In this document: positions 2,169 to 28,098 of the stretch, in pieces
Numbering within the stretch: position 1 is the first letter of the stretch
Layout of the letters: each line of letters begins with the position of its first letter
From: Sphaeroforma arctica JP610
Lineage: Eukaryota
Direction of reading: 5' to 3'
DNA: 34,712 nucleotides
NCBI RefSeq assembly: GCF_001186125.1
Contig: NW_014039890.1
Span: 16,936-51,647 of the forward strand
The notes under the pieces: model-generated
The model's database searches: none
The model's input: the letters and a program-made list of their open reading frames with translations, nothing else
Told to the model about the DNA's origin: nothing
Translations under genes and position numbers: made by a program

Positions 2169-2402
2169 TGTGGTCAGATATGCGATTTAGGGTTATCAGG
2201 GTTTTTGTAGTTAGATATCCGATTTTGGGTTATTAAGGTTTATTTGCGGATCGGTCATAAACCCAGTTTAGGGTTCTGATCCGAATACGCACTTGCGCTA
2301 ATTGACCAGATGCTAATCGAGTAATGTTCAATAAATAGCCAACGACTCACCTCTGATGAGGGGAGTACGTTGGGATATAGTTATTGACGCGTATTTACCA
2401 CA
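2169..2402 (+). repeat. 3' LTR of E0 (234 bp)
   Basis: TGTGGT...ACCACA inverted termini. AATAAA is followed by a hairpin and ggagtacgttg, homologous to the E3 LTRs. Confidence 0.85.
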
Positions 2403-2606
2403 ATCATCTGCACTGTGCAGTCCAATCTCGTTTTGGCTCAATGTAAGTTGGGTGCGTCTGTTCATTTCATCGGCACTCGGGTTGTCTCCCATTGCTACTT
2501 CCATTGTGGCGATCGAAATTAGCCTCGCTGTATCTAACGGAGTCGATATTTGCTTGGAGCGAGGCTCTGCATACCCTAGGCTGTGCGAGAACGAGGTGAG
2601 TAGCTG
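2403..2606 (-). pseudogene. E1 linker and probable start of the integrase zinc finger
   Basis: 68 open codons follow the TAA at 2607-2609 in the MT frame and end RRTQLTLSQNEIGLHSADD. This resembles the RxxLIxxxHxxGH of the HHCC start, with the first His as Asn. It is cut by the E0 LTR. Confidence 0.45.
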
Positions 2607-3020
2607 TTAGCCAGACTTTGGGCCCGCTCGTACTATAACCGTGTGGGCCCATGGTGTCTTTCCACAGGCGATCTTGCCATCCTTCAAGAAAGTATGCGCG
2701 GTTCTCGGAACTAAGATTGGGTCCTGTTGGAGTAGCGATACAAACAATTGTAACCACTCTGCTTGTGGTGCCCATGGTAAGCACACCGTGGCTGACGCTC
2801 CCTCGGACTTGATCTTCCTCAACATCCGATATATCAAATACCATGTAGGATTCATCCATACGTCGATATGCTTCCAGTTGTGCTCAAAAGCACTCCCTTT
2901 CTTATTCTCGGAGAGAAGTATCGTGACAGTTAGTGGTCCTTTTCTGAGGCGAATACATCGACGTTGTTCTTGCCCAAGAGCTGCTGCGCCTGTTTGAAGT
3001 AGTCTGGGAATAGTTTCCAG
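2607..3020 (-). pseudogene. E1 DIRS-type N6-adenine DNA methyltransferase-like (MT) domain
   Basis: Begins in frame after RNase H: WKLFPDYF..VDVFAS(2945-2959)EKDH*LSRYFS, then a frameshift to GSAFEHNWKHIDVWMNPTW(2841-2852)YLIYRMLRKIK..VCLPWAPQAEWLQLF. This fits the DIRS MT pattern DLFAS..N..LPRF.S..DAF...W....NPP/FPP..LI..VL.K....L..P.W....W. Confidence 0.78.
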
Positions 3021-4360
3021 CATTCGGCGTAAAACACCTCCATATCCTCTTCGTCGACTGTCCCCTCATGAAGTCGAAACCACGCGTCAGGCAACACATT
3101 CTTTTCGCCGGGTATGTGCGATATGGTAAAGTTGAACGGCGCTACGATATGATGCCATCTCTGTAACATCGGGTTGAGCTTCAACTGTGTACTCATGTAG
3201 ATTAATGCTTTGTGGTCCGCCAGTACGGAGAAACCGCTGCAGTGTGTAAGTCCGTACACTAATGCAAGTAGCTCCTTCATCGGTGTGGCGTAGTTGCGTT
3301 GGGCTGCATTCAATGCCTTGCTGAAAAACATGAGATAGTGCTTCCGCCCCTCCACGGTTTGGAATAGGGAACCTCCGATACCGTAGTTACTAGCGTCTGT
3401 CTCGAGTTGTACTGGTATGCCGTCCACTGGGAAGCGAAGAACTACCGAGTTTACTATCGCGTGCTTCATGGCGTCCCATGCCTCTTGGTGGCGGGGCTCC
3501 CATTTGTTCCCGATGTCCTCATTCGACTTGAGTTTCACAAACTCCCGTAAAGGCGCTACAATCCTGGCGAAGTTGGGGGTATGTTCTCGCAGGAAGTTTG
3601 CCAGGCCTAGTGCCGAGGCAATGTCTTTGTAACGCTTGGGTGTTGGCCAATCGATCAACTTTGCTTGTTTCTCGTGGCAGATGTCGATGCCTGCCTTGGA
3701 GACCTTCTTACCGAGCACCATGACTTCTCTCACTGCGAAGTGACACCTGGTTGGATTCAGCTTGAAGTTGTGGTACGTTAGTCGGCGGATGACTTCTTTC
3801 ACCACTTTCGTGTGCTCTGCTAAGTTATCCGTTGCTATAACTATGTCGTCCATGTAGTGGTAAGCGGGTAGGGCTTTCAGCACGACACTCAGGATTCGTT
3901 GAAACTGATGCGTCAACATGTGCAGACCAAAGGGTGCTGACGTGATGGAATACTGACTCTTACCGTGGGTAAAGCTGAACAAATACTGCAAGTCTGGCTG
4001 TAATTAGCAGCCTATAGTATACTGCCGTTAAGTCCAAGGTCGTGTAGTATCTCTTGCCTTCAATGTTTCCGTAATGTCGTTAATCCTCGGAATTATGAAT
4101 TGGTCTGCCGGAATCAGTGCGTTCACCGCTCTCAAATCCAGGCATACCCGGACCTTCTTCAATTCTTCCGACTAGATGTACTCTGGTACTGCTAGTAGGG
4201 GGAGGTTGACTGGTGTCGGAGTATCCCGCATAGTGATCACAAGATCTTCCTGCCATTTCTCGACTTGCTTGTCGATCCATGGGATCCACTTGTCCGCGAC
4301 GAAGTTACGTACTTCCCTTCTCATGCTCATCGCCGTCTCTTGCGTGATGGGTATCCGCAC
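3021..4360 (-). pseudogene. E1 reverse transcriptase-RNase H (frameshifted)
   Basis: APFGL, HYMDDIV, LGLANF, ETDASNYGIGG, NYATPMKELLA, DHKAL, HIPGEKNVLPD. Confidence 0.93.
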
Positions 4361-4368
4361 TTCTCTTC

Positions 4369-4941
4369 TTACAAGACGACATTATCTTTGTCCGAAATCA
4401 CCTTGTTACCCTCCAGTTCCGCTTTCAATTCTTGGCGAATCCCGTCCGCCTCTGTCAAATCTGGGCCATTCCGGAGTGGGAGAGGTTCCAAGAGTTTGTC
4501 TAGTTCGTCAATTGGTGCAAAGGGAGACTGAAGACCTCCTTTATACAAACCCAAACTCGGCATCAGGTCTTGGCCTATGATAACGGTTATTGATGGGGGT
4601 AGGTTCATCAGCTCGAATGATTGTGTCGACATCTCTAGCCCATATCGAACTGGTGTGGCGAGTGTAGCTCCCAACCGTTTCGTGCGTAACGATCTGTCTG
4701 CTAAATATATGTAGGCTCCTTCTGGTGCTGGTGTTGTTGGTAAATTCCATTCTTTTGCGGATGCCGTGTCAATGCAACTCCTGTTTGCTCCTGAGTCAAC
4801 GAGTGCTCTGCATGTCTTTCCATTTACTTGTATGTTGATAAACACCCTGTTGTCTTTCGATATCAGTGGGTCTTTCATAGATAAGATTGCCGATGCACCC
4901 TGCGGGAGAAGAAGGGTTACATCAGAGTCAGACACCCTCAC
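4369..4941 (-). pseudogene. E1 aspartic protease region
   Basis: ALVDSGANRSCI ... VIIGQD retropepsin motifs. Confidence 0.9.
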
Positions 4942-4944
4942 GTC

Positions 4945-7371
4945 CTAATGAGAGACGTCGGAGAGGTCATCCCAATCCTCAGTGTGTTGATCCCCACCCC
5001 ATTCTTCTTGTTCGTCTTCGTCTGGGTGTTGCAGAAGTAAGGCAATGTGCATCTCGGTGGGGTTGAACGCCTCCTCCTCTTCTTCCTGCGCTGGAACGTC
5101 GACCGCGTTTACCTGGAGGGTGGGTTGAGATTGCCGCTGTTGAAATGTCGGCTTACCCACTCGCTGGTTAGAACAGTGATTCCTGCACGATGGGATGTGT
5201 CGAAAGCTGGGTGGCGCATTCGTGCGGCATGCATTACAACCCGTTGTAGGTGGACGTCCAGCGTTTCCTGCTGCTGGAGGTTGGTTCTGTGCCTGCGGGT
5301 TTGCGACGCCTCTATTCTGAGGCTGTCTCCTTGCCTGTCTGGTGAAGCCGCGTAGCCTGTCTGCGGTTGCGTCGGTCATACCTCTTTGCCAGTTTTTCTT
5401 AGATACCGGATCCGTCTGCTCATTGCGAATAGTGAAATCTGCTTCCTGTATGTTCGGGTTCAGAATTCGTAAGAGCTCTTCCGTGTCCATACTATCCCAT
5501 CCTGGGTGGTGCTGGAGGGTCCGTTCATACGTTAAATGACCTGTCAAGTCTTCCAGTCCTTGCACGAGGCAATGGTTCAGAAGTCGTTGCGGAAAATCTC
5601 CTTTCTTTTCGGCTCTGTCCCAACCTTTTTCGTGGATGTCAACCACCTTGCTCAGATATTCCCGTGCTGATTCGTTACCTCTCACTCGGGGGTTACCTCG
5701 AGCAAGTCGTTTGAACGGTGGATCTATCGTGGCTCTGCTTTCGTGATCGCAGATGCTGTCGATCACCTGCGCCGCCGTCAGTCTCGTGAGGTTTTCGTTT
5801 TTATATTTGATTGAGTCCAATGTAGGTTTGACCGCCTTAAAGTGAACCAATACCTTGTAAAACCAACGTATCACCCATGTTTCATCGAGGCCAGAGACTT
5901 GTGCGTTCTTCACTGCTTCCTCTAGTGCCCCTCTTGTGTCACGTTCCGCCACGTTGTGGAGTCGATACCTTCCTTGTGGCCAGTCTGGCCATTAGCGAGG
6001 CTCATGCTGACGCTTTAAGGCCTCTTGTTGGGTCTGAACTGCTCCTTGCAAAGCATTTATATGATGGTCTGCAGAGAAATGCATCGTTGCTCATCGTGTT
6101 GCTCCTGTGCTTCACATAGCGACACTGCAGATTCTGCTATCTTTGCTTCTAGGAGGCTGCAATAATCTAGTTGCTGCTGTTTCGTCTGCTTAGGCGGTAC
6201 TACGGGTGTCGGTGCACCCCGGGGAGGGGTCGTGTGGAGAGGTGCGTGGTGTGGCGTAGAGGTGCGAGAGGTGGAGTTGTTCGCGATACTCTGTTGACTG
6301 CGAGTGTCGAAGACGGCTGCTTGTGTCGGCTGTGGTGCCCTGTCCCTCTGCCGCAATAACTGTTGTCGAAGTCGGCATGCTTATTGGGCTTGAGCGACTG
6401 TACCGTGGGGGTTTTCCCAAAACTGTCCCTCTTGCATCTCTCTCTGTGTTTCTAGTCGTCTATCTCTGTGTGACCCAACACGTCTATTCTTGTTGCTACG
6501 TGATCCATGGGATTGGGCGGAATAAGAGGCTAGGTTGAACTCACTGTCGTAGTCGTCTTCGTGATTCCCTTCGTTGTCCCGTGGGTATTGATCCTGGATC
6601 GCCCTGCGTCTCGACTGGTGGACATCCTCATACGGTCGAGTCTGGCGTTTCCACGTGTTGTCCCTGTCGTCGCTGTATCGGTGGGGTGATTGGGATATAT
6701 CGCTGCTCCTTGTGAAGTGTTCATCACTTCGTCGTCCACTCCGGCTCTCATAACCTGAACGTTCGCTGCGTCGGTCGTCCCTCACGTTGGTGTCATGAGT
6801 TTTTTGCTGCCTTTTGTGCATCCGTTTCTTACGACGTTCTTTGTCGATGTCTGAGAGGGAGCGTAACGTTGCTTTCCCTTCCTGTCGAGTGCGTCGGGGG
6901 ATGCTCCTGCCTCTTCACCCTCCTTGAGCCCGGCGTGGTTTCTTGCTGGGAATATCACGCGGGGGGGGAGGGCATTAGATATGCGCTGGAGGCGTGAGTA
7001 GTTGTTGTTGTTGGCGAATCTGTCGTGGTCGCCGCTGGTGGATCGGTGCCTGACGGTGTGGTCGTTGGAGCTGTAGGCCTTGCGTGCCTACGGTCTCCGT
7101 CCCTTTTTTTGGGGGTCAAAGGGAGTCGCGGGACTGTCTCGCTCACACCCGCTGGTGCCCCAGTAGGGATTGGTGGGGAGTCTTCTGGCGCTTGTGGCAA
7201 ACCGATGCCAAAAGCAATCGCTGCTTGCTGTTGGAACAAGTAGTCTGGCATCGGCGGCGCGGTGCTACTGGTCGGTTGAGTGTCGGGTGCGGTGCTGCTG
7301 GCTGACTCAGCGATGGAACCGCTGGGTATCGAGGTAGCCGTTGCGTACGGTGCAGAGTGGTTGGCGGTCAT
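4945..7371 (-). pseudogene. E1 gag-like region, broken into several ORFs
   Basis: ORF 4945-5952 aligns with E3 gag (ERDTRGALEEAVKNAQVSGLD vs ERDTKGALVEALKNAQISGLD) and has a C-terminal Cys/His knuckle. Upstream ORFs are low-complexity, so the 5' limit is uncertain. Confidence 0.75.
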
Positions 7372-9986: not shown

Positions 9987-11560
9987 GTTGTGCTGGATTC
10001 AAGCCTTTTCAGAAGTAGATAATGTCTCTTCTGACTCCATCGATGACTTGAAACAAACACCCTCCTATGCCATAGTCACTAGCATCGTTCATGATTTGAA
10101 ACGGCACCTCATCAATCTGGTATGCTAGTGGCGATGGCTGCTTTGAGTTCTTCCCACTTCTTGATTAGTTCCGGTGTCCATAACATGGATATGTTCTGAT
10201 TCATTTTTCCCTTCATTAGGTTCCGAAAGTGTTTCGTTGTGTGGGCAAATTTGAGGACATGGTCTTGCTTATAATTTGCTAGTCCCACTGCTTTGTGCAG
10301 ATCTCTTTTTGTTCTGAGTAGTGGCCAATCCATCATTCTTTTTTGTTTCTCAGGGTCCGCTTTGAGTCCCTGTGTGGTGACTTTCACCCCAAGAATGTTG
10401 ATCACTTTGACCGCAAAGGCACATATGTTGTGATTTAGTCGGAAGTTTGCGCTATTCAGTCGCTTGATTACTCCACGAACTGTTTTGCAGTGTTCTTCTT
10501 CTGTGAGACTCGCAATGACTATGTCATCTACATACACTTGTACTCCTTTGATATCTATGAGCAGATTCGCCATGACTCTCTGAAATTGTGCTGTTAGTGA
10601 GTGTAGTCCAAACGGCGCGGACTTGAATGAATATTGCGCTCCTCTCCACGAGAATGCGAAGAAGTGTTGGCCTGCTTCGTCTACTAGGAAGTGATTAAAT
10701 CCTCCTGTAAGATCTAGCTTTGAAAAGAACTGTGCTCCTTGTAGGTTGTGTAACACTTCTTTACTTTTGGTAACACAAACTTGTCCTGTTCATATTGATA
10801 ATTGATCTCACGTAAGTCTAGACATGTCCTGACTTTTTTTGAGTAGACCTGTTTGGTCATGTTCTCCTGCTGATAACAACGGCAGGTTTACCGTTGTGGG
10901 TTTGTCGCGTTTGTATATGTGACCATCTTTAAGCCATCGTTGCACATTCTCGTTCGTTTGCGGAATGTATTTGTGCGGAACAAAGTTGACTTTAGCGTGC
11001 CTCATTTGTCTGACGCTGATTTCATTTGCAGGTACCGTGACTGTGGAGCCTGGTAGGTTACAATGAACATCAGGAGGTATATTCGCACTGGTATCCAGGA
11101 GGTCTGTAAGTGACTCTCTGAAACCTTCTTGTTCATGCTCTAAGTCTTCTTCATGTGGTGTGAGGAGTGATTCCCATTTTGCATCTGTTGGTATGAATGG
11201 GTTGATTAACCCTGCTATGTATATACCTATGTATGGTAGAATGTCCATACCTAGAAGTATTGGTGTCTTTTTGTCTGGTAAGTCCAATACTTCAAAGCAC
11301 TGAGAGGTCATCCTCCCTCCATAGTTAATGTCACAAACTTCTGTTGATCCAGTGCGTTGTATTATTGCATCTGTTTGTACTCGTTGTATATACCCAGGTT
11401 GCGCTCTAACAGACAGATATAGTTCTGAAACTACACTTTTGTCCATGCATGAGCGTTGTGCCCCTGAGTCTACTAGTGCATTGTATGTATTGCCATTTAT
11501 TTGTATAGCAATGTGTAAACGTTGGTCTCGTGGTGCGGGAAGTAAAGATAAAGGTTAATA
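9987..11560 (-). pseudogene. E2 pol fragment (protease-RT-partial RNase H)
   Basis: DSG at 11462-11470, ILLGMD, FSKLDLTGGFNH, APFGL, VYVDDIVI, and DASDYGIGGCLFQ at ~10050-10090. Confidence 0.92.
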
Positions 11561-11659
11561 ATTTATATCATTTGCATTTATTAACAACGTTTCTTCATCT
11601 GTAAATACATAGAGTCTGTCAGCCAGATCAATCATGTTCGCTTCCGCCCACCAGTGTTT

Positions 11660-13462: not shown

Positions 13463-13637
13463 GTTCGGTCCTTGTGACGTCACCGAAAAAGGTAGGTCCT
13501 GTCGACGTCACCGAAGAAGTTCAGTCCTGTCGACGTCACCGAATAAGTTCAGTCCTGTCGACGTCACCGAAGAAGTTCGGTCCTGTCGACGTCACCGAAG
13601 AAGTTCGGTCTGTTGACGTCACCTCTTGATGTTCGGT
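13463..13637. repeat. 28-bp minisatellite, ~6 copies (gtcctgtcgacgtcaccgaagaagttcR), in the E2 leader
   Basis: gacgtc occurs at 13476, 13504, 13532, 13560, 13588 and 13615. Confidence 0.93.
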
Positions 13638-15747
13638 CTTAGTCACTGCACATGTATTGATGTGTGCACCACCTGTTGTGTGTGTGGTTTCTAAGTGATT
13701 CTCACTTGTGATCCTTTTTGGTGCTTGTGTGCTTCCTTGTGTGGATCTCACTGGTTGTGTGCCAGCTTTTGTGAAGCTTGTTTGGCTCGCGATGTCCTTG
13801 GGCTTGCTGTTCTTGTTCGCCACTTGCTGTCCGTTCCTAGGACTGTAGCTTGTGAAACACAGTGATTGATTGTGTATTTCAATTGTGTATTTCAATGTTG
13901 TGTACCAATGATTGAATTGGTCACTTGTATGTGTGTGTCGTCTCTCTACTGCAGGTTATTTGACCTATGTGCTTTTCAAGTGCTCCCCTGACTTTGCTTT
14001 TGTACGTGTTATGTCGTACTGTGTGTGTTCCTGCCCTTCAGGTTTATGGTTGCACGTTGTGCTATTGTTTTGTGACGAGCTGATTGCTCTTGGATGTTAA
14101 TTCACCCTGTTGTGTCTGTGTATTGTTTATTTTTGAATGTTTGTTTGTACCTCAATGAAGACCATTCGTTGTTAGCGATGCTTTGTGCACTTTATGTATT
14201 ATTGGCTTGCTTGTAGCTCAATGCGCTAGCCTACATTTGGTGTAATTGATTGATTGCCACTCTGATTTGTTGATTGAGTGTTTTGAATCTTGTATAGCTT
14301 GTATAAAGTGCTGCGTTGTTTGTATGGAAATGGCTTGCCCTTCTAATGATTCTATATTGAGATCTTTTCATATCCTAGTAGGAAGTATTGTCATAATCTC
14401 TAGTTTATGTTAATGAATGGAGATCACTTATTTGAAATCAGTGAATCTTGTTTTAATGACTATCATGTGATCACAAATTGTGATGCTTAAGTTCGTGTGT
14501 TCACAAAGAGTGGTACTTAAGCCTTATTTGTGTCTTGTATTAAGTAGTGGTGCTGATTCCTCATTCCCCTGTGTACCGCACTACGTGTTCCATATCATGT
14601 TACTCGCTCACCACACTTTCGTCCTGTTTTGATCGTTTTTAGACTATAATTGTGCTTGATCAGGCCGTTGGTGTGTGGCTATATGATCTTGAGAGGTACT
14701 CTGGTAGTATGTTGTTTGTACTCATAGGTATACTTTGAGTTTTAGCTATTAGTGTTCCTCGATTGTATGTTCGATTTGTGTGCACCTTCTAATTTAACTT
14801 CTGATATTGAGTATTGTACTCAGAACTTCGCTATGATTCACTATGAATATCTCCTGACTTGGGAGCTACTTTTTGCTAAGGCATACCTCTTTGTTATCAC
14901 TAGTTGGATCTTCCGATCTCTATTTTTATTTATTAAGATTCTCAATACTATAAATTACTTTGAAATGTAAGTGATGCTTCTTGTGAACTTATTGATCCTC
15001 TTAATTGATCGATCCTCCTATCTGGTAACTAGTCTTTTTAGTGTTGTGTCCACTCTTCTTATGCTCTAGATAATGTGTACACATAGATGCTCTATCTCAC
15101 TTGTTGTTTGCTTGTTACATTATAATGTGATGATTGAATCTTATATTGCACTGTGCTGATTGAATCGTAGATAAATGTTGTCTTTACCGTGTTCTGTGTT
15201 CTTACTATTCGTCTAGAGAGACTTCTGTGTACGTGTAGTGATGTGCTTTTTGAAAGTCTAACGTCATTTTGGTTTCTTGTCTGAAATTTCCTGAAAAAGC
15301 TCAACATTGATAGATCGATCACCTTGATAGCTTCTCAGTTTTCACTAGTTTATGCCTTCACGCTGGTACTTACTTGTACCTCTCTATACTTGATAACACT
15401 CTATTAACATAGTACACTTACCCCAAATATTCAGTACACAATGCTGTTACCTTGTATGTTCCCTTTTTTGTTCACTAGTGAGTCTATGCCGGAGCTCGCT
15501 TCTTTGCTTCTTCCACTCACTTCTTGTTGGGCCCCGGCTGGCTAGCTGGTGGGAACACGTTTATTCGCCTCCTCTTTCTTGTCTAGCTTCCTTGGCTGAC
15601 TTGCTGAAACTTCTTCTTTGTATCTTTACCTTGAAACTGAAATAGAGCTTATTCGGTATTACTAGATACTTATTGTGTACTTCACTTGTCACTTGCTTTG
15701 TTAGGTGGAAGTCAGTTGACTTATCTAAGTAAAGATATTGTAAATAA

Positions 15748-16301: not shown

Positions 16302-17825
16302 CTATGGGTGATATACTATCGGTGAAGAAAAAATCGTGAAGAAGTGCGGATCTACCAAACGTACCTCCTGCGCCAACATCCTGAACAGTTTAGCCGAAGA
16401 TGCAATCTCAATCGTTTCTAGATTTTGCGCAATAGTAAATTGGTTGTCTTTGCGCAACATCGGAGGTACGTTATATGTGCATCCAGCCGGTAGTAAATCA
16501 GCTATATGAAATTCTTTATCACCCATCGCGGCGGAACCAGGCCACATCTTCACGTATAGAGCCTTTCTACATATCCGAGATATTTTCCGATCATTTATTT
16601 TGCCGGGATACAACGGAGACACATATGTGCAGTGTCCGGCGGCTGACATTCCCACGAGCCTTTTTACCGTATTATGATGTTTGTACTTGCTATTTGTTGC
16701 CTTTTGGAAATCTAGATTGGACAGAGTCTAGATGAAGAACTTTACAACAGTGAAGGGAGTAATATGTGTTATTGATAATTGAGTATGATGCAATCCCTTT
16801 GTATTTATAATATACGTGCATACAATATATTCATTCAAAGTACTACGTTAACATATTGAGCGCTCTTCAGACACACGAATACATACCTGTGCAATCGACA
16901 ATTAGTTATGTTTTTGGATGCTTGTCCATGAAGCAAGGTAGCCGTAGTGCATCCACAGTTGCCTTGTTGAAGAAAGTCATCGGTGCATTACCAGGATGAC
17001 GGATATAACCCAAAAGTACTGCATTCATATCATTGAGAATATTTGATACGGTCTGTGTACAAATTAATCCAAACAAGTGTGTTAGGATGCTTGATCTAAG
17101 TTGTACCTAACCCTGGCGAACCACAACAAAAGGGCGTTCCGAAAAGTCAGTGTATTTCGTCCGGGTCTGAATGCTTTACCATATTCCTCTATATTATCCG
17201 CAAAAGCCAGAAACTTAGCGGGAATTTGAAATCCTGTCCAGAAGCGAACCTTCTCTACATCCTTATATACATACTCGTACGTCAGTTTGTAAACGTAAGT
17301 CTCTTTAAAAGTCTTCGCCATCCCGTCAAATATGTTGCTTCTCATTGAGTTTTTCCTCCAACAAACTCAATTCAATCTTTTGCTTGAAGACCTGTCGTGT
17401 GTTCCTGTTCTACACTTTTCATCTCAGTACGTAGTTGGTCAAATTCTGCTTCCAACGCTGCTAACTTAGCAGCAGATCTGCTAAGAGCCGCTATCTTCTC
17501 TTCTAGCTGCATCTCAGTAGTGTTCACCTTAGTGTGTCGCCTTTTTACTGGTATGATATTGTCATCTGGATGTATGGTAGCAAGTGGTCGCCTATTCGAA
17601 TGTAAACTGGGTCGGGAATTCTCCTGCAGAGATTCCAATTGCATCATCTCATTCAGTAATCTCTGCTGTTCTAACGCTTCCTGTGCTAAACGTGAACGTG
17701 CAATATGTGCCCGATATCGTTCTGCCGTCATTGGAACAGCATCGCTTGTGAGTTTTGTATGTCTCCATGTTTTACGTATATACTTATATGACAGTGTTTT
17801 GTGCACAATTTATGTTGTATTTTTA
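16302..17825 (-). pseudogene. ISL2EU/PIF-Harbinger-type transposase pseudogene (THAP remnant, HTH_Tnp_4, DDE_Tnp_4)
   Basis: LCTKH..KLTSDAVP (THAP end), a coiled coil, KVRFWTGF, RNALLLWFARVRYNL, LIVDCT(E) split by an intron (GTATGT at 16886), SKYKHHNTVK.LVG, YVSPLYPGKINDR, MGDKEF and NVPPML..NQFT. The RIHVE motif is missing. Confidence 0.85.
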
Positions 17826-18544
17826 TCTCACAATGAAGTTGACCGTCCCGTCAACCAGAACCGTGTGCGATCTTGGTACCAGACTGTGGCATTCTGGCAA
17901 CGCTATATTGTCGGTTCCTCCCAAGATCTTGAAGCCCATATCAGTCTTGCTCAAAGATGGAGTGCGATTTAAGTGGGGTGCTGACCAGCAGGCCGCGTTT
18001 GATTTAATCAACGCGCGTCTGAAGACATGTGCAGTCCTTGCTACGCCGGAACTGGGTGACCGGCTCTATCAGTTCGCTGATGCTTGTGGGCATATCGGCC
18101 TTGGTGGTGCGATATGTGTGCTGAGGAATGGGGAACTCTGGCCAGTGGCGTATATTTCCTCCAAGTTCTCACCGGACCAGCTCAACAATCACGTAACTGA
18201 CAAGGAGTGGCTTGTGCAGGTGTACGGTCTTCGGAAGCATTGGATTGTGTTTGGTAACTCTCATCACCCTATCACAATCTTCACGGACCATCAGGCACTT
18301 TTAACCCTGTGGCACCGTAAGCCGTGGCCGGCGGCAGGCACGCTGGCAGGAGGCTTGTCGGGACCGTGATGGTTATCTCTTGCATGTGTGGGGTGGGTAA
18401 GGACAACGGCACAGCGGATATGCTGAGCCGCCTTGCAACTAAGGTGGATCTGTGGATGGATCCGGTTGGGGCGCGAACAGCTACCCCTGTGCGGCGAATT
18501 ACGTGGCGGTACCCGGTCGCCCGCCTGGTCCTCTCCACAGTAAT

Positions 18545-18926
18545 GAATATATGGCCAATAACAAGTATTTCAATGTGGCTTATAAGGCTTGGGGTCCGGA
18601 TACCCATTCCCAGGCAATAACCACTTGCCCTCTTATTTCTCCCCCTCTTTGGAGGGCGGTGCGTTCTCCAAATTATGGACGTTCCTCAACTTTGAGATGA
18701 ATTGCCCGTGGGCCGCTGTCCCGCGCGAAGATTATCGCGGATGAAGAAGACATTTCATTAACGTGTCCTTATCTCCCTGATTCCCCAAGGTTTCAGCTGA
18801 TGTTATCTTTGTTGTCGCGGGAGCCCATCATCATTCCTCCGGAGAAAGGGGTCTTTTTTTCGCTATGGACATGAAGAGATGCCACCTCGCTGGGGTACTA
18901 AGTTGTTGTGTAGGCTATCGGCCAAG
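18545..18926 (+). pseudogene. E4 N6-adenine methyltransferase-like (MT) domain
   Basis: Read across two frameshifts: EYMANNKYFNVAYKAWGP / GNNHLPSYFSPSLEGGAFSKLWTFLNFEMNCPW(18700-18711)AAVPR / KIIADEEDISLTCPYLPDSPRFQLMLSLLSREPIIIPPEKGVFFRYG..PPRWGT. Colinear with the E1 MT domain. Confidence 0.72.
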
Positions 18927-19289
18927 GGTGCCAATTTCCAGGATACTAAGGATTTTTGGCGTCAGCGTGACGCGTTCGTTCCAGGAGCTGTGGCTGGGGA
19001 CGCCACCCACTCGGTTCTCCGGACTAGTCCGCGAACGGTGCCCCCCCCCAACCCACTCCCGTGGAGCTGTCTTCAATCGAGCGAAAGGCTGCGCAGGGCA
19101 CGGAACCTAAGCGCAAAATACCTGATCGGCGTGTGCACAGGGCTAGTGCCCGACATGGGCAAGTCCAGGCAGCTGTGCAGAGGGACTTGCCCAAATCTAA
19201 GGGCAAGGTCGAACCGTCAGTCAAGCGTGCCATGGAAGGCTCTTCTCCGTATCGGATTCGGGGCTTCATATTTTCTTGGCCGGAAGTCT

Positions 19290-20264
19290 ACAGTGTCATT
19301 GCGGCCACCCACAGAGTGTATATGCATACAGGAACTGACAAGCTGATGGGCAAGCTGTATACCCTTTATGGATGGAACGGCCTGCGATCCCTGGTCCGAG
19401 TGATCAAGCGATCGTGTCACCGTTGCTAGTTACGGGCTCCGCATAGTGCACAGGAGTTGGGCTTACTCCAGCAGCCCAAGCGTGCGCGCGGGTTGTTTAA
19501 CCATGTGTTCATGGACTTTGCGTCTCTGCCTAAGACCTTAACGGGATATACTCATCTTCTGCTGGTGGTGGACAGAGCCACTTCGATGGTGTTAGTAAAA
19601 CTATCTCACACTAAGAGTGCTCGTAAGGCTATTAAGTTCAAAAATGAAGTTGTTCATCCTTGGGGTCAACCCAAAATGTACACGTGTGACAAGGATTCTG
19701 TCTTCATGGCCAAGGAATTTGCTGACTTTGCAAAGCAATCAGGCAGGGGAAAGCACGATGTCACCACTGACCATCACCAAGCCAATTGTGCAGCCAAAGC
19801 TATGGTGAAGGTTGCTCAGGATTAGATACTCAAGTCTATGACTGCGCAGGATGAGGGTGATTGGGTCCCTTGGTTGCAACTGTTACAATGCTGCGACTAC
19901 CGCCACTCAAGATTTCGCCCCATATACGATGGCTACCAACCGTGTATATGATGGGGAGCGTGAGTTCAACTTCGAAGCCGACGTATGTTGCCTCCTGGCC
20001 ACTGAGGACTCTGCCCATGCCTTAGTGCGTGATGATGCAGCGTTCCAGTGCACCCAGCATGCTAAGGAAGCGCAAAGGGCGAGGGCAAATAGGGTTCGCA
20101 AGCGGGCTCAAGAACTTGCTCCCGGGTCTCTGGTTAAATTCAAGTCTTCCCCGGATCGTCCGAAGTTGGATGATAAATGGAAAGGCCCTGCTACTATACG
20201 GTCGCAGGATGGCCCGGTAACGTACACTATCTCGTTCCAGGGCAAAGGAGTCAGTCGCCACTGA
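19290..20264 (+). pseudogene. E4 integrase (HHCC finger, rve core, GPY/F-like C-terminus)
   Basis: THRVYMHTG...SCHRC, FNHVFMDF, HHQAN, WKGPATI, with several premature stops. Confidence 0.88.
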
Positions 20265-20919
20265 ACCCAGCTCTGTCCGTATATATCTCCCATTTTCCCA
20301 AATATTGGGCAGGAAGTCGATTTGGTATTCTCGGCGATTACGAGCAGTGGCTATTCATGCGGTCCCTCTTTCGGAAGGCACCGATCGAGTGGCGCAGAGC
20401 GGTGTTGCACCACCATCGGCACACTGAGAAGGGCCAGACGTGGAAGGGTCTAGTTAACTCGGCCTTTGGTCTTTTGCAGAAGGCGTATACCCGTAAGGAC
20501 AAGCGGGTCAAATACAACTTATCTCCTGCGGTTCGCAAGTTTTTGCGCGGGAATGGAAGAGGCTCTCCCCGGGCACTCTTCAGTCACGCATGTCCCTGGT
20601 CGGGTCGGCGTTGGCGTTTGCTCAGGTCCCCACATTCCGTGCCGAGAAGGTTAAGGAATGGACGGACGCAGCGAACAATAGGGATATTTAATCTTTTATG
20701 CTTTTCATTACCTGACATAAACAGCGACATCAAAATTTGTACATGGTATAAAAACCGAAATTTTCAAATCCTATTGGAAATTTGCTTCCGATGGCTCGAG
20801 TTGAAAACAAACGCATGTTTTTGTCCAATAAGACCGTAGTAGTGAAGATTTTTGTTCAAGAAAAACTTGCACTGTGCAACTTGCTGCCTACGACTTGGTG
20901 GCTCGGTGGAAAAGCCGCC

Positions 20920-21130
20920 TGTGGTCAGATATACTCTATTTAGTTTATTTCACGTTTTTAGGTTTATTTGAAAAAGGGTCATAAACCCTGGTTTAAGGTT
21001 TATGACCAATTTTATACACATGTTAAATATTAGAACCTATGGTTCATTTTATAATTCAATAAAGATACAACGTCTCCCCTTGTAAGAGGGGAGTACGTTG
21101 AGATATTGTTAACTCGCGTATTTGACTACA
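20920..21130 (+). repeat. E3 5' LTR
   Basis: 203/211 identical to 27220-27430 by manual comparison. Confidence 0.97.
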
Positions 21131-22421
21131 TTTTTAACAAGCTTATTAGTTGTAATTTATTGAAGAAAAGTGATAACCGACATAGTCTAAAGAAGACAGA
21201 TTAATGACCCATATTTTTTTCGCTAGAATAAGAGCGTCAATATCAGGACAATGGAGAAACCCCCCAGGAAGTCACATGAGAGAGGGAAATACACCCATAG
21301 GACTGTCCACGACAGACCGACAGCTGGGAAGCGAGGATACCGGGTTCGGTAGTAGTGAACTGAGCCTACCATCATTGTTGTCAAACTCAGGAAGCGACTC
21401 CGATGTAGGCAACGAAGCAAAAGGCTACCCAAATGAAGAAATGTCACCACCACGCGGATCGCTCTGTGAAATGAATCAACCCCTAGACATGAGACGGCAG
21501 AGATCAGCCAGATGGTACATCTCTAATACAATAAGTAGTGACGAGAGACAGGAATACACGAATGTGTGGAGGAGACGACAAGCAGGACTTCCAACGAGGT
21601 TACGACGAATAGTGAGTGTACCAGACACACCGAGGTTTTGGGGACATGACCATGACGAGGAAATGAACGAAGAACACTGGACAGGGGAAGTTTGCTATGG
21701 ACAAGGTAAGTCTCTATGGATAACAAGGAGACGTACAACAATACACTGAAATACAGGTGGAGTCTATAGGCAGATGAGTGTTGATAGGAAGGTGTGAACA
21801 TTAGTAATGAGCAAATATGAAATAGTGTACATGAGGTGTGTGATAAGGGATCAGTAGATATTAGCGGTACGTATATGGAAGTGAATCATTGTGTATTGGC
21901 CTCGTATAAGTGTAACATACGATAGCGACTAGTTATGAGCAGCATAAGTGTGGAAGTATAGGTGTGAGAAGAATACCACAAAATTCGATATGAGACACGT
22001 AATAGCATCACATTGTGGAGTATGCGCGACAGAACAGCTGTCAGCGAAGAAGTAAGAGGAGCAAGAGATGCAGGATGGGTGGAATAGAGAAAGAATAGGT
22101 AGACAACACGTACGGTCGGGACTAGATAGATAGAACGAGTATGTAGACAAAAGAAGCACGTGCGACAATAGGGGGAGCATGAGACGTGTGACCATAGGGG
22201 GAGCATGAGTCTAAAGCAAAGAGCAATGAAGGAGAGTTACTCCATGCAATTAATCTGCACGAGGAGTAGTGAGTCCATGGACTCTGGGAGTAGGCAGATG
22301 TAATTGAGAAGTACATGTGTGTCAAGAGAGGTGCCATCCGTTGCATATATAAGCAACAGATAAATAGGTTAAAGATAAATTATTCTCGACTTAGACATAC
22401 AAGCACCGTAACCTTACTGCA

Positions 22422-24560
22422 ATGCCGAGCACCCGTAAGAGTCGTCGGCAGCATGGTCTGGAACTCGAGCAACATGTACGTAGTACGAGCCAACTACGAG
22501 GTTTTAAGCGTAGAGCTGGCCTATCTCAAGAGGGAGACCAAGGGTTGTCTGAGGACCAGCGAGGGGAGGCAGACGAACCATTTCAGGCGACCAGAGCGTT
22601 ATTTGGCTGAGTCTCAGCATCGCCGAGCGAAAGCAACGAGTCGTCACCTCCGAGCGCCCACACATGGCGTTGTAGTGATATGGGACAGAAGCGTCAGAAT
22701 GACGGTGGCAGGGTTCTACACCAACAAGGACAGACTCGACCTCGTCAGAAGCGACGCCCTTACCGTCAGAGCCGTCAACACGTGAGCAATGCACAATCCA
22801 AGAAACAGCAAGAATTGCTGGAGAAATATGAGCAGCGGCTGCAACACCTTCAGCGGCAGGCAGAGAGACCTCGAGGAGGTCCGACCACTTTTTCTCCAGA
22901 TCAGGGCCAGGAGGAGAGTATTAGTACCAGTCAGCCGCCGGAGTCAGTTGGGGAGAATAAACGTTTAGAGTTCAGGATTCCAGGCAGTCCGGTTAGATAC
23001 GGAGTCGGATACCAAGCCCCAGCCCAAGGGATGGAACCTCACGACTCAGATACACCACGGGCGGCGATCTCCCTACAAGATTCTGTACATGCGCAGCAAA
23101 GAGCAGCACAAGACCTTCATGGGCCGGAGGCGCTGGAAAACCGTCGTGATCGATTATCGGAGACGGTTCATTCTCAGCGACAGAATCGACGATTCGAGGC
23201 GGAGGCACTACGAGACTCGATACCCGAACACACGGTGTTATCGACCCCTGCGACACAGGTATCCCCACCAACGGCTGGTGACAGGGTGACCCCTCCGACA
23301 CCGGAGAGTATTGCGGCGGATCGCCAAGCGCTTCATGCGCGGATGCTTCGACTATCGGAAGAATTGTGCAGTGCGGTTGATGCAGATGATCTTCTACGTG
23401 CCGAGGCGCTGAGAGGGGTGTTAGAAACCTTACGAGCCACACATGACTCGCACCCCGTAACCAAGCACGAACCACGAGAACCGAGAAGCTGGCCTGAATG
23501 GCCGTCGAACCGATACCAACTACACAATGTATTCGAGAGAGATACTAAAGGAGCCCTGGTGGAGGCGCTGAAGAACGCACAGATCTCGGGCCTAGACACG
23601 GCGTGGAGTTTACGGTGGTTTTATAAGGTTCTGAGCCACTTCAAGACCGAGCAGTCTACTTTAGATTACATCAAGTCCAACCACCAACGGTTGCTTAATT
23701 GGACTCCAGAGTTGCAGATAACACAGATCTGCTCTCGCGAAACTCAAGCGACAGTCGACCCCACATCCCGCAAGTTGGCGAAGGGACACTCTCAGGTGTC
23801 AAATGTACCTATTATGGAACAGATGACACAATTAATGGAGAATCACAGACGTGCCCACGAACGCAGCCAGACGGATGCGGAATTCAAGCAAAACCTTTTG
23901 AACCACTGCATTGTGCAGTTGTTGGAAGACTCTCTTGGGTCTCGTACATATAAGCGGACGCTACAACTGCACGCCAAGTGGCACTTGATGGAGACTCACG
24001 AATTGTTGCAGCTTCTCAGTCCTGATATTCAAGAAGCACAGACAAGAACTACGGCGCGGATGTCGAAACGACGACCACATACCAACGATCATCAACAGGG
24101 GGGTGGGACGGTAGCTCGTACACCGCATATGACCACTCCACGAGGGACACAACAGTGGCAACAGCGCATGCCACCGTCGAATACAACAACAACATGTGGC
24201 GGGTGCCAGGCACAAGCACCACCAGGGTTGAGGCACATTCCTCGCTGTCATAACTATAGGGCAGCGACCCAGGACAACCGTGGCCGCACGTCAGAGACAC
24301 GTCAACGTGGCCCGGGACCGCATAGTGCAGTAACACCTTCCACAACGATAACACCATCGGTTCCACCGGTACGGAGCGTGGGAGGCGACAACACGACGCA
24401 ACCATAGGTCCATAGTCTCACAGACACGTCGGCGTGGGATACCCCACCTACCGCCACGGATCTACATATTGGAGCGCTGCTTTCTGGTGATATGGGGGTG
24501 AGTGATCTGACAGGAGACGATAAGATATCCCCCAAATGGTCTCCCATATCAGATCAACCT
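22422..24560 (+). pseudogene. E3 gag-like region
   Basis: The frame from ATG 22422 runs through the 575-aa ORF (22680-24407), with stops at 22608 and 24405. Homologous to E1 gag. Confidence 0.8.
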
Positions 24561-26510
24561 TGTAATATCAGGGTGTCTGACGATGATATAGCTTTGACGT
24601 TTGCGTATACAGGATACTCGGTACAGGCGATAAAAGACCCACAGTTAACAGCAGATCAACGGGTGTGTGATCAAGTTCAGTTGAATGGTCGCACATTCCG
24701 AGCCCTGGTAGATTCAGGCGCAAATAGAAGTTGTATTTTGCAGGCATCCGCAGAGGCGCTAGGCCTTCCGATATCTCCGGCTCCTCCTGATTCATACATT
24801 TATTTGGCGGATCAAGCGGCGCGTACTCGGCGACTGGGGATGACGAAGAGCATCCCAATTAGATATGGAGCGGTTATAACTAACGGTTCCTTGGAGCTCA
24901 GGAATCTACCGGTAGGCATCGATGTGATCATCGGGGTAGATATTATGCCTGGCTTAGGTTTATACTTAGGAGGACTACAATCTCTGTTAGCACCTATAGA
25001 TCCGACAGAGTTGGATAACTTACTGAAGCCGATCACTAGACGGCAAGCCCCAGATTTAACCGAGCCTGACGGCATCCGGGAGGATCCAAAATCAATATTA
25101 GAGGCGAATGCAGCGATTACAGATAGCGCACGATGCTGATTGGAAGGAAGTGAGGTGACCATACCGGTCACTAGAGACCAAGCAATGAACATGCGTCGTT
25201 CAACTAGGAACTTTGTGTCAGACCTATGGATACCATGCGTGGAAGAACAGGTGCAGAAGTGGCTACGAGATTTAGTCATTATCAAGCAAACTACTCCAAC
25301 TACAGTGAATTTACCACTATTAGCGGTACCGACCTTTGATAGCGAGGGGAATGTCAAGAAGGTACGAGTTTGCCTCGATATGCGAGCAGTCAATGCTCTG
25401 ATCCCAGGCGACCAATTCCTGATCCCCAAGATGAACGAGATCATATCGCGGTTACAGAGCAAGAAGTATTATACAACATTGGATATCTCAGCAGCGTATC
25501 ATCGTTTGCCGATTCACCCAGATTCTCAGTACTTGTTTAGCTTCACCCATGGGCGCCACCAATATTCATTTACATTGGCGCCATTCGGTCTGCACGTTAT
25601 CACCCAGAAATTCCAACGGACGTTGAGCACAATCTTGGATGGCCTCCCCGTGAACCATTACATCGACGATATAGTGATAGCGGGTGACGACTATGAAGAG
25701 CATAAGGCAACGGTTACAGAGGTGATTCGCCGTCTTACATATCATAGCTTCAAGTTGAATCCTGATAAATGTCACTTTGCGATCAGGGAGGTAATGATTC
25801 TCGGAAAGAAGGTGTCAGCAGCAGGTATTGATATTGATTTCGAGAAGCAGGCGGAGCAGCTGGATTGGCCGACCCCGCAGCGTTACAAGGATATAGCATC
25901 GGCGCTAGGTCTTGCGAACTTCCTCCACGAACATCTTCCAATTTTTGCGCACATAGTAGCACCACTTCGAGAGTTCTGTAAGCTGAAACTTAACGAGTTG
26001 ATTGGGACAAGGTGGGAGCCTCGCCACGCAGAGGCGTGGGCGGCTATGAAGACGACGATTGTTAACGCGGTGGCTCTACACTTCCCAGTGGAGGATATTC
26101 CCCTGAACTTGGAGACAGATGCCAGTACTATGGCATCGGAGGGGCTTTGTTCCAGTAGGTGGAGGGAAAGAAGCGCTACCTTATGTTCTTCAGTAAGACT
26201 CTTAATCAGGCACAACATAATTACGCCACGCCAACGAAGGAATTCTTGGCGCTTGTATATGGGCTTACACACTTCCGAGATTTCATCGACGGGCAGCGAT
26301 TCGCAGCATTCACGGACGATAAGGCGCTAGTGTATATGAATACACAGTTGAAGTTGATCCGATGCTACAACGCTGGCACTACATTATAGCCCCGTTTAAC
26401 TTCACTATATCAACATTCCGGGAGAAAAGAATGTTCTCCCTGATATGTTGAGTAGGGTCCACGAGGGGACAGTGGAAGGCGATATACCAGAAGTAATGTA
26501 TGCAGATTGT
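24561..26510 (+). pseudogene. E3 protease-RT-RNase H
   Basis: ALVDSGANRS, VRVCLDMRAVN, LDISAAYH, APFGL, HYIDD, ETDAS, TKEFLA. Stop at 25137-25139 and frameshifts in RNase H. Confidence 0.95.
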
Positions 26511-27039
26511 CTACAACGCCTAGATCGCCTCCAGGATACGATCTTACCAATGTTGCACAGGCTGACGATGCGATACACGGACACTTTGATGAGGAACTTC
26601 GATCTGGTGCACTTTGAGGAAGGCGATGTGGTGATGGTCAAATCGGAAGGGCGCACATCGAAGGCCATGCGCCCTTTGTTTGGTCCATATGTAATTAAGG
26701 CCGGAACGGACAGGGGTACGACCTTGCTCATCGGGATGGTTCGATTCCATCGGAATTCAAGGGTCGACCGGTTCGGGCTGGATTTATACGGATGGTCCAC
26801 AGGAGCACGGATCCACACCCCTGGACGAGAGTCTATGGCGTGAGGACGGGTTTGCGTTCCGACACATCATTAAACATCGCATGAATGATAAAACTGGTCA
26901 GACGGAGTACCTAGTGCGCTGGCGTGAAGGAAATCCTACCCGAGAAACGGCCGAGGCGTTTGACGATGCTAATGACATCGTGGCATACCATAAGGATACA
27001 CAAACACGCTCTCGCAAGCGCCGACGGGAAGCAGTGTAA
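26511..27039 (+). pseudogene. E3 integrase C-terminus and chromodomain
   Basis: FEEGDVVMVK..RPLFGPYVI (GPY/F motif). The frame from 26821 reads FRHIIKHRMNDKTGQTEYLVRWREGNPTRETAEAFDDANDIVAY, matching the chromodomain pattern I..HR...EYLV.W.G..TWE. Confidence 0.85.
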
Positions 27040-27208
27040 CAAGTATGGTTGTGCAGCATTCTTATTGTTCTTTTCTTTAATTTGCGTTATTTCAAGTTAT
27101 CTTAATGCCAGCGGATCCCTCTTGTTCGTAGAGGTTAAACCAGCGTCCTATGTATAGCGAGTATATCTTCACTCTTCTGAAGCTGGCACACGTACCGTGC
27201 TTCAGCTT

Positions 27209-27218
27209 GGGGGGGGGG
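27209..27218 (+). promoter_or_regulatory. E3 polypurine tract (G10)
   Basis: G-run ending 1 nt before the 3' LTR. Confidence 0.88.
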
Positions 27219-27219
27219 T

Positions 27220-27430
27220 TGTGGTCAGATATACTCTATTTAGTTTATTTCACGTTTTTAGGTTTATTTGAAAAAGTGTCATAAACCCTGGTTTCGGGTT
27301 TATGACCAATTTTATACACATGTCAAATATTAGAACCTATGGTTCATTTTATAATTCAATAAAGATACAACGTCTCTCCTTGTAGGAAAGGAGTACGTTG
27401 AGATATTGTTAACTCGCGTATTTGACTACA
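27220..27430 (+). repeat. E3 3' LTR
   Basis: Direct repeat of 20920-21130. Confidence 0.97.
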
Positions 27431-27833
27431 CGCCGTTAGCCCTCATATCCTCTCACACACTCAGATATCCATACCATCTTATTTGTTGTCCCACAGTTTT
27501 CTCATGCCTAACACCTGAGCTGTGTTAATATATGGGTCTCCTGACACAACACCATACACTGCACAGCAGCTCACATACAGTCATATCCATTTATATACTC
27601 CGGCTGAAACCCCCAGAATTGAAAATCCTAAAAGTAAACTGACGATACGCAAGTTTATATTGCATCAGTTTAATTAATCGGCTTAAGCTGTAATTCTTCA
27701 GCCTAAGCTATAATTATCATAGGAAAATGTGTGCGTATCAGGTCTAAAAAGAAGTGACACAAAGTTACAAACAGGGACCACACCCTTATGGTCACTGCAA
27801 TAGTTGTTTCGCACAATGAACCTTTGGATTGTT

Positions 27834-28098
27834 GTATGGTTGCGGTCTACCGACTCATAGGGGGTTTGTACGGTTGCGGTCTACCGACTCATAGGGGGTT
27901 CGGATGGTTGCGGTCTACCGACTCGTAGGGGGTTCGTATGGTTGCGGTTTACCGACTTATAGGGGGTTCGTATGGTTGCGGTTTACCGACTCATAGGGGT
28001 TTCGTATGGTTGCGGTCTACCGACTTTATCATGACGTTCGCATGGTTGCGGTCTACCGACTAATTCAGGGGGTTCATATAGTTGCAGTTTACCGGCTT
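27834..28098. repeat. 34-bp minisatellite, ~8 copies (gtatggttgcggtctaccgactcatagggggttc)
   Basis: ggttgcgg occurs at 27838, 27872, 27906, 27940, 27974, 28008 and 28044, with a degenerate copy at ~28080. Confidence 0.95.

What the first reader, a model, noticed from the sequence alone, without database searches (positions are those of the whole stretch)
2607..3020. Adenine DNA methyltransferase-like domain fused after RNase H in a Ty3/gypsy LTR retrotransposon (E1)
Seen: the RT-RH frame runs directly into WKLFPDYF...VDVFAS...LSRYFS...SAF..NW...WMNPTW..IYRMLRKIK...LPWAP..EW, followed by an integrase-finger-like start. Established: this motif order (DxFAS SAM-binding motif, then an NPP[YFW]-type catalytic motif) marks the phage-Dam-like MT domain after RNase H in DIRS/PAT tyrosine-recombinase retroelements. 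It is not part of the standard Ty3/gypsy PR-RT-RH-IN layout. E1 has a protease and a TG..CA LTR, and its relative E3 has direct LTRs, a TSD and a chromodomain, so these are not DIRS elements. Inference: a chromovirus-like lineage encodes its own 6mA writer, possibly to mark or protect its cDNA or to mimic active chromatin. I cannot check whether this has been published.
Basis: partly seen in the sequence, partly recalled or inferred. Interest (0 to 1): 0.9.

Follow-up and report, generated by a model that had tools for sequence, protein, structure and literature searches.

The report
Dead Dam-carrying gypsy retrotransposon, overlooked chromodomain
This is a broken copy of a gypsy-type jumping gene in the single-celled animal relative Sphaeroforma arctica that carries a bacterial-style DNA adenine methyltransferase-like domain; a 2026 preprint already describes such elements in this species, but its relatives also end in a predicted chromodomain that the preprint says they lack.

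Summary
On the minus strand, E1 runs gag–protease–RT–RNase H into a Dam-like (PF05869-type) domain at 3019–2610. That domain is broken by a stop, a frameshift and NPTW in place of NPP[W/F/Y]. The window's SAM-synthetase is 382/382 identical to S. arctica's. bioRxiv 10.64898/2026.05.21.726589 describes an ichthyosporean 'DAM-LTR' lineage in that species, with 6mA maps and a negative E. coli assay. E1's RT groups with Dam+integrase gypsy elements, including an Abeoforma one, and apart from DIRS-like rows.

E3 is a deletion derivative whose sister copies run on into the Dam domain.

One addition: E3 and 9 of 10 clade proteins tested end in a diverged chromodomain lacking the third cage aromatic, whereas the preprint says this lineage lacks chromodomains. 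The likely function is 6mA marking of cDNA, which is unproven. This scan noted the same kind of element before on other DNA (Rozella, Euglena).

The parts
2610..3019 (-). E1 Dam-like adenine methyltransferase domain (PF05869-type), pseudogenised: stop 2932-2930, frameshift about 2912-2903
2945..2959 (-). DVFAS motif (D-x-F-A type; SAM-binding role recalled, not tested)
2841..2852 (-). NPTW at the catalytic-motif position; NPP[W/F/Y] in 44 of 52 aligned rows
3020..3082 (-). RNase H-to-Dam linker, homologous to E3 up to 26510
3140..3502 (-). E1 Ty3/gypsy RNase H (Pfam RT_RNaseH 2.2e-20, RT_RNaseH_2 2.3e-23)
3503..4380 (-). E1 reverse transcriptase, YMDD motif, with stops and frameshifts near 4065 and 4003
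4369..4944 (-). E1 aspartic protease (DSG)
4945..5991 (-). E1 gag-like ORF (no Pfam hit; 46-56% identical to the E3 gag-like ORF)
2403..2606 (-). Post-Dam linker, cut by the nested LTR; integrase zinc-finger start not demonstrable
2169..2402 (+). 3' LTR (TG..CA) of a nested, opposite-strand E3-like element, preceded by a G-run polypurine tract (about 2152-2168) and a 3' region like E3's
20920..27430 (+). E3: sister element with 211-nt direct LTRs (20920-21130, 27220-27430), 4-bp TSD CGCC, gag-PR-RT-RNase H, internal deletion of Dam and integrase core
26505..26515 (+). E3 deletion junction: sister contigs go on here into the first residues of the Dam domain
26851..27003 (+). E3 C-terminal chromodomain; first and second cage aromatics kept, third absent

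Best explanation
E1 is a decayed copy of a Sphaeroforma arctica Ty3/gypsy retrotransposon whose pol carries a DIRS-type Dam-like domain between RNase H and integrase, and in intact relatives this domain likely writes N6-methyladenine on the element's own new cDNA. Shown here: the order gag-PR-RT-RNase H-Dam in E1; single ORFs with PR-RT-RNase H-Dam-integrase and a chromodomain-like tail in relatives; the family's place among gypsy RTs; and E1's death by stops, frameshifts, a changed catalytic motif and an LTR insertion. Inferred: the domain is made as part of Gag-Pol, so it would be packaged next to RT and integrase. It would use SAM to methylate adenines on the cDNA or the RNA:DNA intermediate. 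After integration the host AMT1 would maintain the mark and keep the new copy in transcription-permissive chromatin (the preprint's model). The chromodomain would help choose the site. Confidence is about 0.95 for the identity and about 0.4 for the cDNA-methylation mechanism.
For: Host: the SAM-synthetase at 32749-34026 is 382/382 identical to the S. arctica protein apart from a 43-residue in-frame insert. Best solved-structure match of RT-RNase H: Ty3 Gag-Pol, E=3e-37. RT tree of 54 rows: E1+E3 100/100, inside a 13-row Dam-bearing clade with Abeoforma P0156 at 99/94, apart from 12 RT-Dam rows without integrase at 100/100 (same placement). The Dam tree recovers the same clade (SH-aLRT 92), so RT and Dam travelled together in this lineage. 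NPP[W/F/Y] is kept in 44 of 52 aligned domains. The AlphaFold model of the C-half has pLDDT 94, and its best fold matches are adenine methyltransferases: PCIF1/CAPAM, CcrM, KsgA. The preprint reports more 6mA-marked and more expressed DAM-LTR than other LTR insertions in S. arctica and A. whisleri.
Against: No activity has been shown: eukaryotic Dam domains expressed in Dam-deficient E. coli did not raise 6mA (preprint). The 6mA enrichment is measured at ApT, the host AMT1 site, so it can be the host's work. Fold scores are weak for this half domain (Foldseek E>=0.023; best VIA Z 5.9, within the range the tool calls uninformative), and RNA methyltransferases match as well as DNA ones. E1 itself gives no Pfam Dam hit. 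E3 lacks Dam and the integrase core yet has LTRs and a TSD, so a Dam-less copy either moved in trans or lost them after insertion. The 12 'DIRS-like' rows are labelled by architecture only; the 6 looked up had no name.
Confidence: 0.65

Rival explanations
1. The domain is kept as a non-catalytic nucleic-acid- or SAM-binding accessory of RT-RNase H or integrase, and the 6mA on DAM-LTRs is deposited by host AMT1 because these copies are transcribed.
For: Negative E. coli assay and lack of the N-terminal part of prokaryotic Dam (preprint). Earlier unchecked scan notes report lineages that keep the domain without the motif.
Against: NPP[W/F/Y] is kept in 44 of 52 aligned domains across very divergent elements, which fits selection on catalysis.
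Confidence: 0.25
2. The domain is an active adenine methyltransferase whose substrate is the element's RNA or the RNA:DNA hybrid and not finished dsDNA, for example to control replication or avoid host sensing.
For: The best fold matches include RNA adenine methyltransferases PCIF1, KsgA/DIMT1 and Erm. The domain is fused directly to RNase H. The preprint raises a hybrid requirement.
Against: Its sequence family is the phage DNA Dam family PF05869. The fold scores are too weak to indicate a substrate.
Confidence: 0.2
3. E1 is a DIRS element, or a one-off chimera of a gypsy copy with a DIRS fragment.
For: RT-RNase H-Dam is the DIRS pol order (PMC3783388 passages), and no integrase or LTR of E1's own is seen.
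Against: E1 has a protease, which tyrosine-recombinase elements lack. Its RT is gypsy-type. Relatives have Dam plus rve integrase in one ORF. E3-like contigs also enter the Dam domain.
Confidence: 0.03

Closest known systems
Ichthyosporean DAM-LTR lineage (Fernandez-Moreno et al., bioRxiv 10.64898/2026.05.21.726589; whole main text read; figures and supplements not seen)
   Same: Same host species, Ty3/gypsy RT, and DIRS-type Dam domain in pol. Named Abeoforma proteins (P0150, P0155, P0156) and S. arctica proteins (SARC_07150, SARC_09892) group with E1.
   Different: The preprint says the lineage 'lacks chromodomains'; E3 and 9 of 10 clade C-termini tested have one. E1 is a dead copy with NPTW.
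DIRS tyrosine-recombinase retrotransposons with an MT (Dam PF05869) domain (Muszewska et al., PMC3783388; passages read)
   Same: RT-RNase H-Dam order and the same Dam family.
   Different: DIRS lack protease and DDE integrase and have inverted terminal repeats. E1 has a protease, its relatives have rve integrase, and E3 has direct LTRs and a TSD.
Chlorophyta DAM-chromovirus-like clade and EpiLTRs (same preprint)
   Same: Dam plus a chromodomain in one gypsy element.
   Different: Described as an independent capture in green algae and Euglena; EpiLTRs add a cytosine methyltransferase, not seen here. Not compared by sequence here.
Chromovirus chromodomains, groups I and II (PMC3350952; passages read)
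   Same: Chromodomain fold at the integrase C-terminus with W45 kept.
   Different: Group I keeps Y24, W45 and Y48; group II lacks Y24 and usually Y48. E3 keeps an aromatic at the first two positions and lacks the third (read by eye).

Membership tests
Ichthyosporean DAM-LTR lineage | Host is an ichthyosporean (Pirum, Abeoforma, Sphaeroforma arctica) | tested here: met
   SAM-synthetase 382/382 identical to the S. arctica protein; A. whisleri 68%, Capsaspora 66%
Ichthyosporean DAM-LTR lineage | Dam (PF05869-type) domain in pol | tested here: met
   No direct Pfam hit on E1's halves, but 26 of 30 scanned homologues carry Dam and the N-half matches independently
Ichthyosporean DAM-LTR lineage | RT branches with Ty3/gypsy, not DIRS | tested here: met
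   the DIRS side is labelled by architecture, with no named DIRS reference
Ichthyosporean DAM-LTR lineage | Dam domain groups with other ichthyosporean DAM-LTR domains | tested here: met
Ichthyosporean DAM-LTR lineage | DDE integrase after Dam | tested here: inconclusive
   Met in relatives; in E1 it is cut off by the nested LTR and the remnant does not score
Ichthyosporean DAM-LTR lineage | Lacks a chromodomain (as the preprint describes it) | tested here: not met
   E3 and named A. whisleri P0156 have one. I read this as a descriptive miss in the preprint, since the lineage is defined there by its Dam tree, and not as exclusion from the lineage.
Ichthyosporean DAM-LTR lineage | Asn-Pro-Pro catalytic triplet | tested here: not met
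   E1 has NPTW; 44 of 52 aligned rows have NPP[W/F/Y]. Read as decay of this copy.
Ichthyosporean DAM-LTR lineage | Raised 6mA and expression on insertions | not testable with these tools
   Needs the nanopore modification calls
DIRS | No aspartic protease | tested here: not met
   Protease at 4944-4369
DIRS | DIRS-clade RT | tested here: not met
DIRS | Tyrosine recombinase ORF and inverted terminal repeats | tested here: inconclusive
   None among the ORFs scanned or the repeats listed; E1's ends are lost. E3 has direct LTRs.
Chromovirus (chromodomain-containing Ty3/gypsy clade) | Chromodomain at the integrase C-terminus | tested here: met
   (E3 and relatives; E1's own 3' end is missing)
Chromovirus (chromodomain-containing Ty3/gypsy clade) | RT inside the chromovirus clade | tested here: inconclusive
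   The clade lies outside a 9-row group with plant and fungal rows (95/89), but the backbone is open and no named chromovirus references were used
Chromovirus (chromodomain-containing Ty3/gypsy clade) | 5-bp TSD (common in chromoviruses, PMC4007536 passage) | tested here: not met
   E3 has a 4-bp TSD; one insertion only

The most novel reading that the evidence does not exclude
Ichthyosporean DAM-LTRs are reader-plus-writer elements: they pair the Dam domain with a non-canonical chromodomain that has lost the third cage aromatic and steers integration to permissive, not silent, chromatin, where Dam-seeded 6mA is kept by host AMT1. The presence of the chromodomain alone, which contradicts the preprint's text, is about 0.9 likely; the probability given is for the coupled function.
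Probability: 0.15. Interest if true: 0.65.

Novelty: already known. Interest (0 to 1): 0.27.

Why it matters
If the Dam domain is active, a transposon writes the host's 'active chromatin' mark on its own new copies, the reverse of the usual methylation silencing. That idea and this lineage are already in a preprint, so E1 adds only a dead example. The usable addition is the overlooked chromodomain: Dam plus chromodomain is then not confined to the algal and Euglena lineages, and the preprint's split into chromodomain and non-chromodomain DAM-LTRs may depend on a Pfam threshold. Naturally intact single-ORF relatives (P0146, P0156, P0149) are better test material than E1.

Tried and rejected
No whole genome was held, so genomic copies could not be collected and dN/dS was not computed.

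Pfam and PHROGs on E1's two halves gave no methyltransferase hit. The word-indexed homologue search with the C-half among longer proteins gave 0 of 23 candidates. A profile of alignment A2 against PDB sequences gave nothing significant (best E 0.25). The ESM Atlas did not answer.

No RNA holder was listed for 2410-4400; this is no evidence on expression. Contig depths were not used as copy numbers.

The integrase zinc-finger start in 2606-2403 was not supported by BLAST or a profile. A search for a minus-strand LTR of E1 with a profile of the three LTRs found only weak self-palindromic matches (the first try failed on a format option).

I considered that the LTR at 2169-2402 is an inverted terminal repeat of E1 and rejected it: it follows a polypurine tract and E3-like 3' region on the + strand, and a sister contig runs on past it. 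P0239 also ends in the antisense of this LTR family; I read that as a separate insertion, not tested.

In one search about 20 residues of E1's RT row were in the wrong frame; with them masked the placement was the same (FastTree only). One of 10 clade C-termini (P0151) did not score as a chromodomain. A copia reading of P0239 got no Pfam support.

Full report
Observation. Six-frame translation shows a minus-strand element, E1: gag-like ORF 5991-4945, protease 4944-4369, RT and RNase H (Pfam RVT_1 1.5e-11, RT_RNaseH 2.2e-20). The RNase H frame runs on through a short linker into WKLFPDYF (3019) and DVFAS, then a stop at 2932-2930. After a frameshift near 2912-2903, a second frame carries WMNPTW, LPWAP..EW and GKTPW up to a stop at 2609-2607. 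Contigs across 2648/2670-3283 match with 0 differences in 4 of 4 runs laid, so the lesions are in the genome; the runs may be one strain.

What the domain is. Neither half hits Pfam Dam directly. A full phmmer search with the 100-residue C-half gave 99 proteins at E<=0.001. I scanned 30 of them, chosen as the top hits and longer proteins: 26 carry Dam PF05869 and 19 pass its cut-off. Of 9 further distinct hits scanned, 5 carry it. The N-half, independent of that search, matches 36 of 100 proteins, against 0 for the reverse and 0 in 20 shuffles. In an alignment of E1 (X at the breaks) with the 51 of 100 proteins that covered the whole domain, 44 of 52 rows have NPP[W/F/Y], and E1 alone has NPTW. 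E1 scores 151 bits on a profile of 50 relatives against 5.4 for the best of 100 shuffles; this is partly circular for the C-half. AlphaFold models the C-half at pLDDT 94. Its best matches are SAM-dependent adenine methyltransferases: PCIF1 (TM 0.52-0.56), CcrM and KsgA, all at E>=0.023. The VIA search gave Z 5.9 for PCIF1 and 4.2 for E. coli Dam. These fold scores agree with the sequence evidence but would not carry the claim alone.

What the element is. The best PDB sequence match of RT-RNase H is Ty3 Gag-Pol (3e-37). The best long homologue of RT-RNase H, P0001, is itself PR-RT-RH-Dam-integrase-Chromo, with a weak Dam hit at E=0.0067. The RT tree used 54 rows; 8 of 62 hits were dropped for short RT and 3 near-duplicate cluster members were left out. 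It places E1 with E3 (100/100), next to P0146 and window element E2, in a 13-row clade (99/94) whose 10 database rows all carry Dam, 9 of them with integrase, including A. whisleri P0156. Twelve RT-Dam rows without integrase, DIRS-like by architecture only, lie apart (100/100, repeated with a wrong-frame stretch masked). A Dam tree recovers the same clade (SH-aLRT 92).

Host and literature. The SAM-synthetase at the end of the window is 382/382 identical to the S. arctica protein. One literature search found bioRxiv 10.64898/2026.05.21.726589; I read its whole main text, but not its figures or supplements. It claims the first identification of Dam in non-DIRS LTR elements and defines an ichthyosporean lineage in Pirum, Abeoforma and S. 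arctica. It reports more 6mA and expression on DAM-LTRs than on other LTRs, and no activity in Dam-deficient E. coli. The finding is therefore already known, down to the species. Earlier notes of this scan describe the same kind of element in Rozella and Euglena; I did not test them.

Corrections to the anatomy. The LTR at 2169-2402 is on the + strand, behind a G-run and a region 83% identical to E3's 3' end. A contig bridges the junction with 0 differences, and an 830-nt sister contig matches 2409-2677 with 24 differences and has 561 further letters that do not lie on this LTR, each in 4 of 4 runs. It is a nested insertion that cut E1. E3 (20920-27430) has direct LTRs with 8 differences in 211 nt and a 4-bp TSD. 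It shares E1's linker up to the residue before the Dam domain and then jumps to the integrase C-terminus. In 4 of 4 runs a contig bridges this junction unchanged, while other contigs leave at 26510 with letters that read W-Q-L-F-P, the start of the Dam domain. In 2 of 4 runs the listed loose ends before 26514 read like integrase; that table is cut. E3 is thus a deletion derivative of a Dam-bearing family.

The chromodomain. The preprint says this lineage lacks chromodomains. E3 26830-27036 hits Pfam Chromo at 3.9e-5 but just under the cut-off (23.9 versus 25.1 bits). All 36 PDB sequences matched at E<=10 are chromodomain-containing proteins (that cpSRP43 and Chd1 contain them is partly recalled). 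Its model (pLDDT 89) matches chromodomains in all 40 rows listed, at probability 1.00 and E from 0.003; the alignment behind the model included canonical retroelement chromodomains. A profile built from 8 chromodomains outside the clade scores E3 and 9 of 10 clade C-termini above the best of 20 shuffles each: A. whisleri P0156 at 23.3 bits, P0146 at 7.8, P0155 marginal at 7.1 versus 4.5, and P0151 fails. None of the eight clade members scanned had a Pfam Chromo hit at E<=0.01, which likely explains the preprint's statement. By eye, W45 is kept in 9 of the 10 clade rows of alignment A3, an aromatic at the Y24 position in 7 of 10, and none has an aromatic at the Y48 position (three have one a residue later). 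By the cage definition in PMC3350952 (passages), canonical methyl-lysine binding is doubtful. One search for Sphaeroforma + retrotransposon + chromodomain gave 3 papers: the preprint, PMC4007536 (passages read) and PMC11244446 (listing only). I saw no report of this domain there; the preprint's unseen supplements may bear on it.

Mechanism. Shown: the domain is part of pol between RNase H and integrase and keeps its catalytic triplet across divergent elements. Inferred: it travels in the particle with RT and integrase and methylates adenines on the new cDNA or hybrid, seeding a mark that host AMT1 maintains; this is the preprint's model. I give that about 0.4, against a non-catalytic accessory role (0.25) and an RNA or hybrid substrate (0.2). 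E1 itself can do none of this.

Verdict. Real, correctly recognised in its core, and already described in this species. The remaining value is a modest correction on the chromodomain. Interest 0.27.

Noticed in passing
window 17923-20264 (+): A further decayed gypsy element (E4) with RNase H, a Dam-like remnant at 18533-18865 (profile E=1.9e-6; best match S. arctica SARC_09610), then an integrase zinc finger and core. It looks like a more distant DAM-LTR family.
   Followed up: partly
window 9988-11638 (-): E2: truncated PR-RT-RNase H start, 75% identical to the intact DAM-LTR pol P0146; it breaks off before the Dam domain. All four LTR-element remnants in the window are thus tied to Dam-bearing families.
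   Followed up: partly
protein P0239 (S. arctica SARC_09551), residues 1-394: Dam domain (Pfam E=1.2e-5) between an HH-like and a CxxC-GK-like stretch that by eye recall a Ty1/copia pre-integrase zinc finger. No copia Pfam hit; the gene model may be spliced. The preprint's main text never mentions copia. A possible copia-type Dam capture, unverified. It ends in the antisense of the same LTR family that cut E1.
   Followed up: partly
proteins P0161, P0165, P0168, P0194, P0234: Unnamed relatives with other orders: endonuclease-Dam-RT-RNase H-integrase (P0161, P0165), Dam before the protease (P0168, P0194, the latter with weak hits to further methylase families) and Dam after integrase and a weak Chromo hit (P0234). 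Some may be the preprint's Euglena types; not checked.
   Followed up: no
window 16302-16727 (-): DDE_Tnp_4 transposase fragment (Pfam 1.5e-14; Harbinger/PIF-type label recalled).
   Followed up: no
window 32749-34026 (+): Host S-adenosylmethionine synthetase gene with a stop-free, in-frame 43-codon insert, presumably an intron. Its closeness to the elements is taken as chance.
   Followed up: partly
window 13463-13638 and 27800-28059: Tandem arrays of 28-nt and 34-nt units.
   Followed up: no
window 20300-20700 (+): Broken reading frames after E4's integrase that by eye recall the N-terminal part of a tyrosine recombinase; no Pfam hit for the ORF scanned.
   Followed up: no
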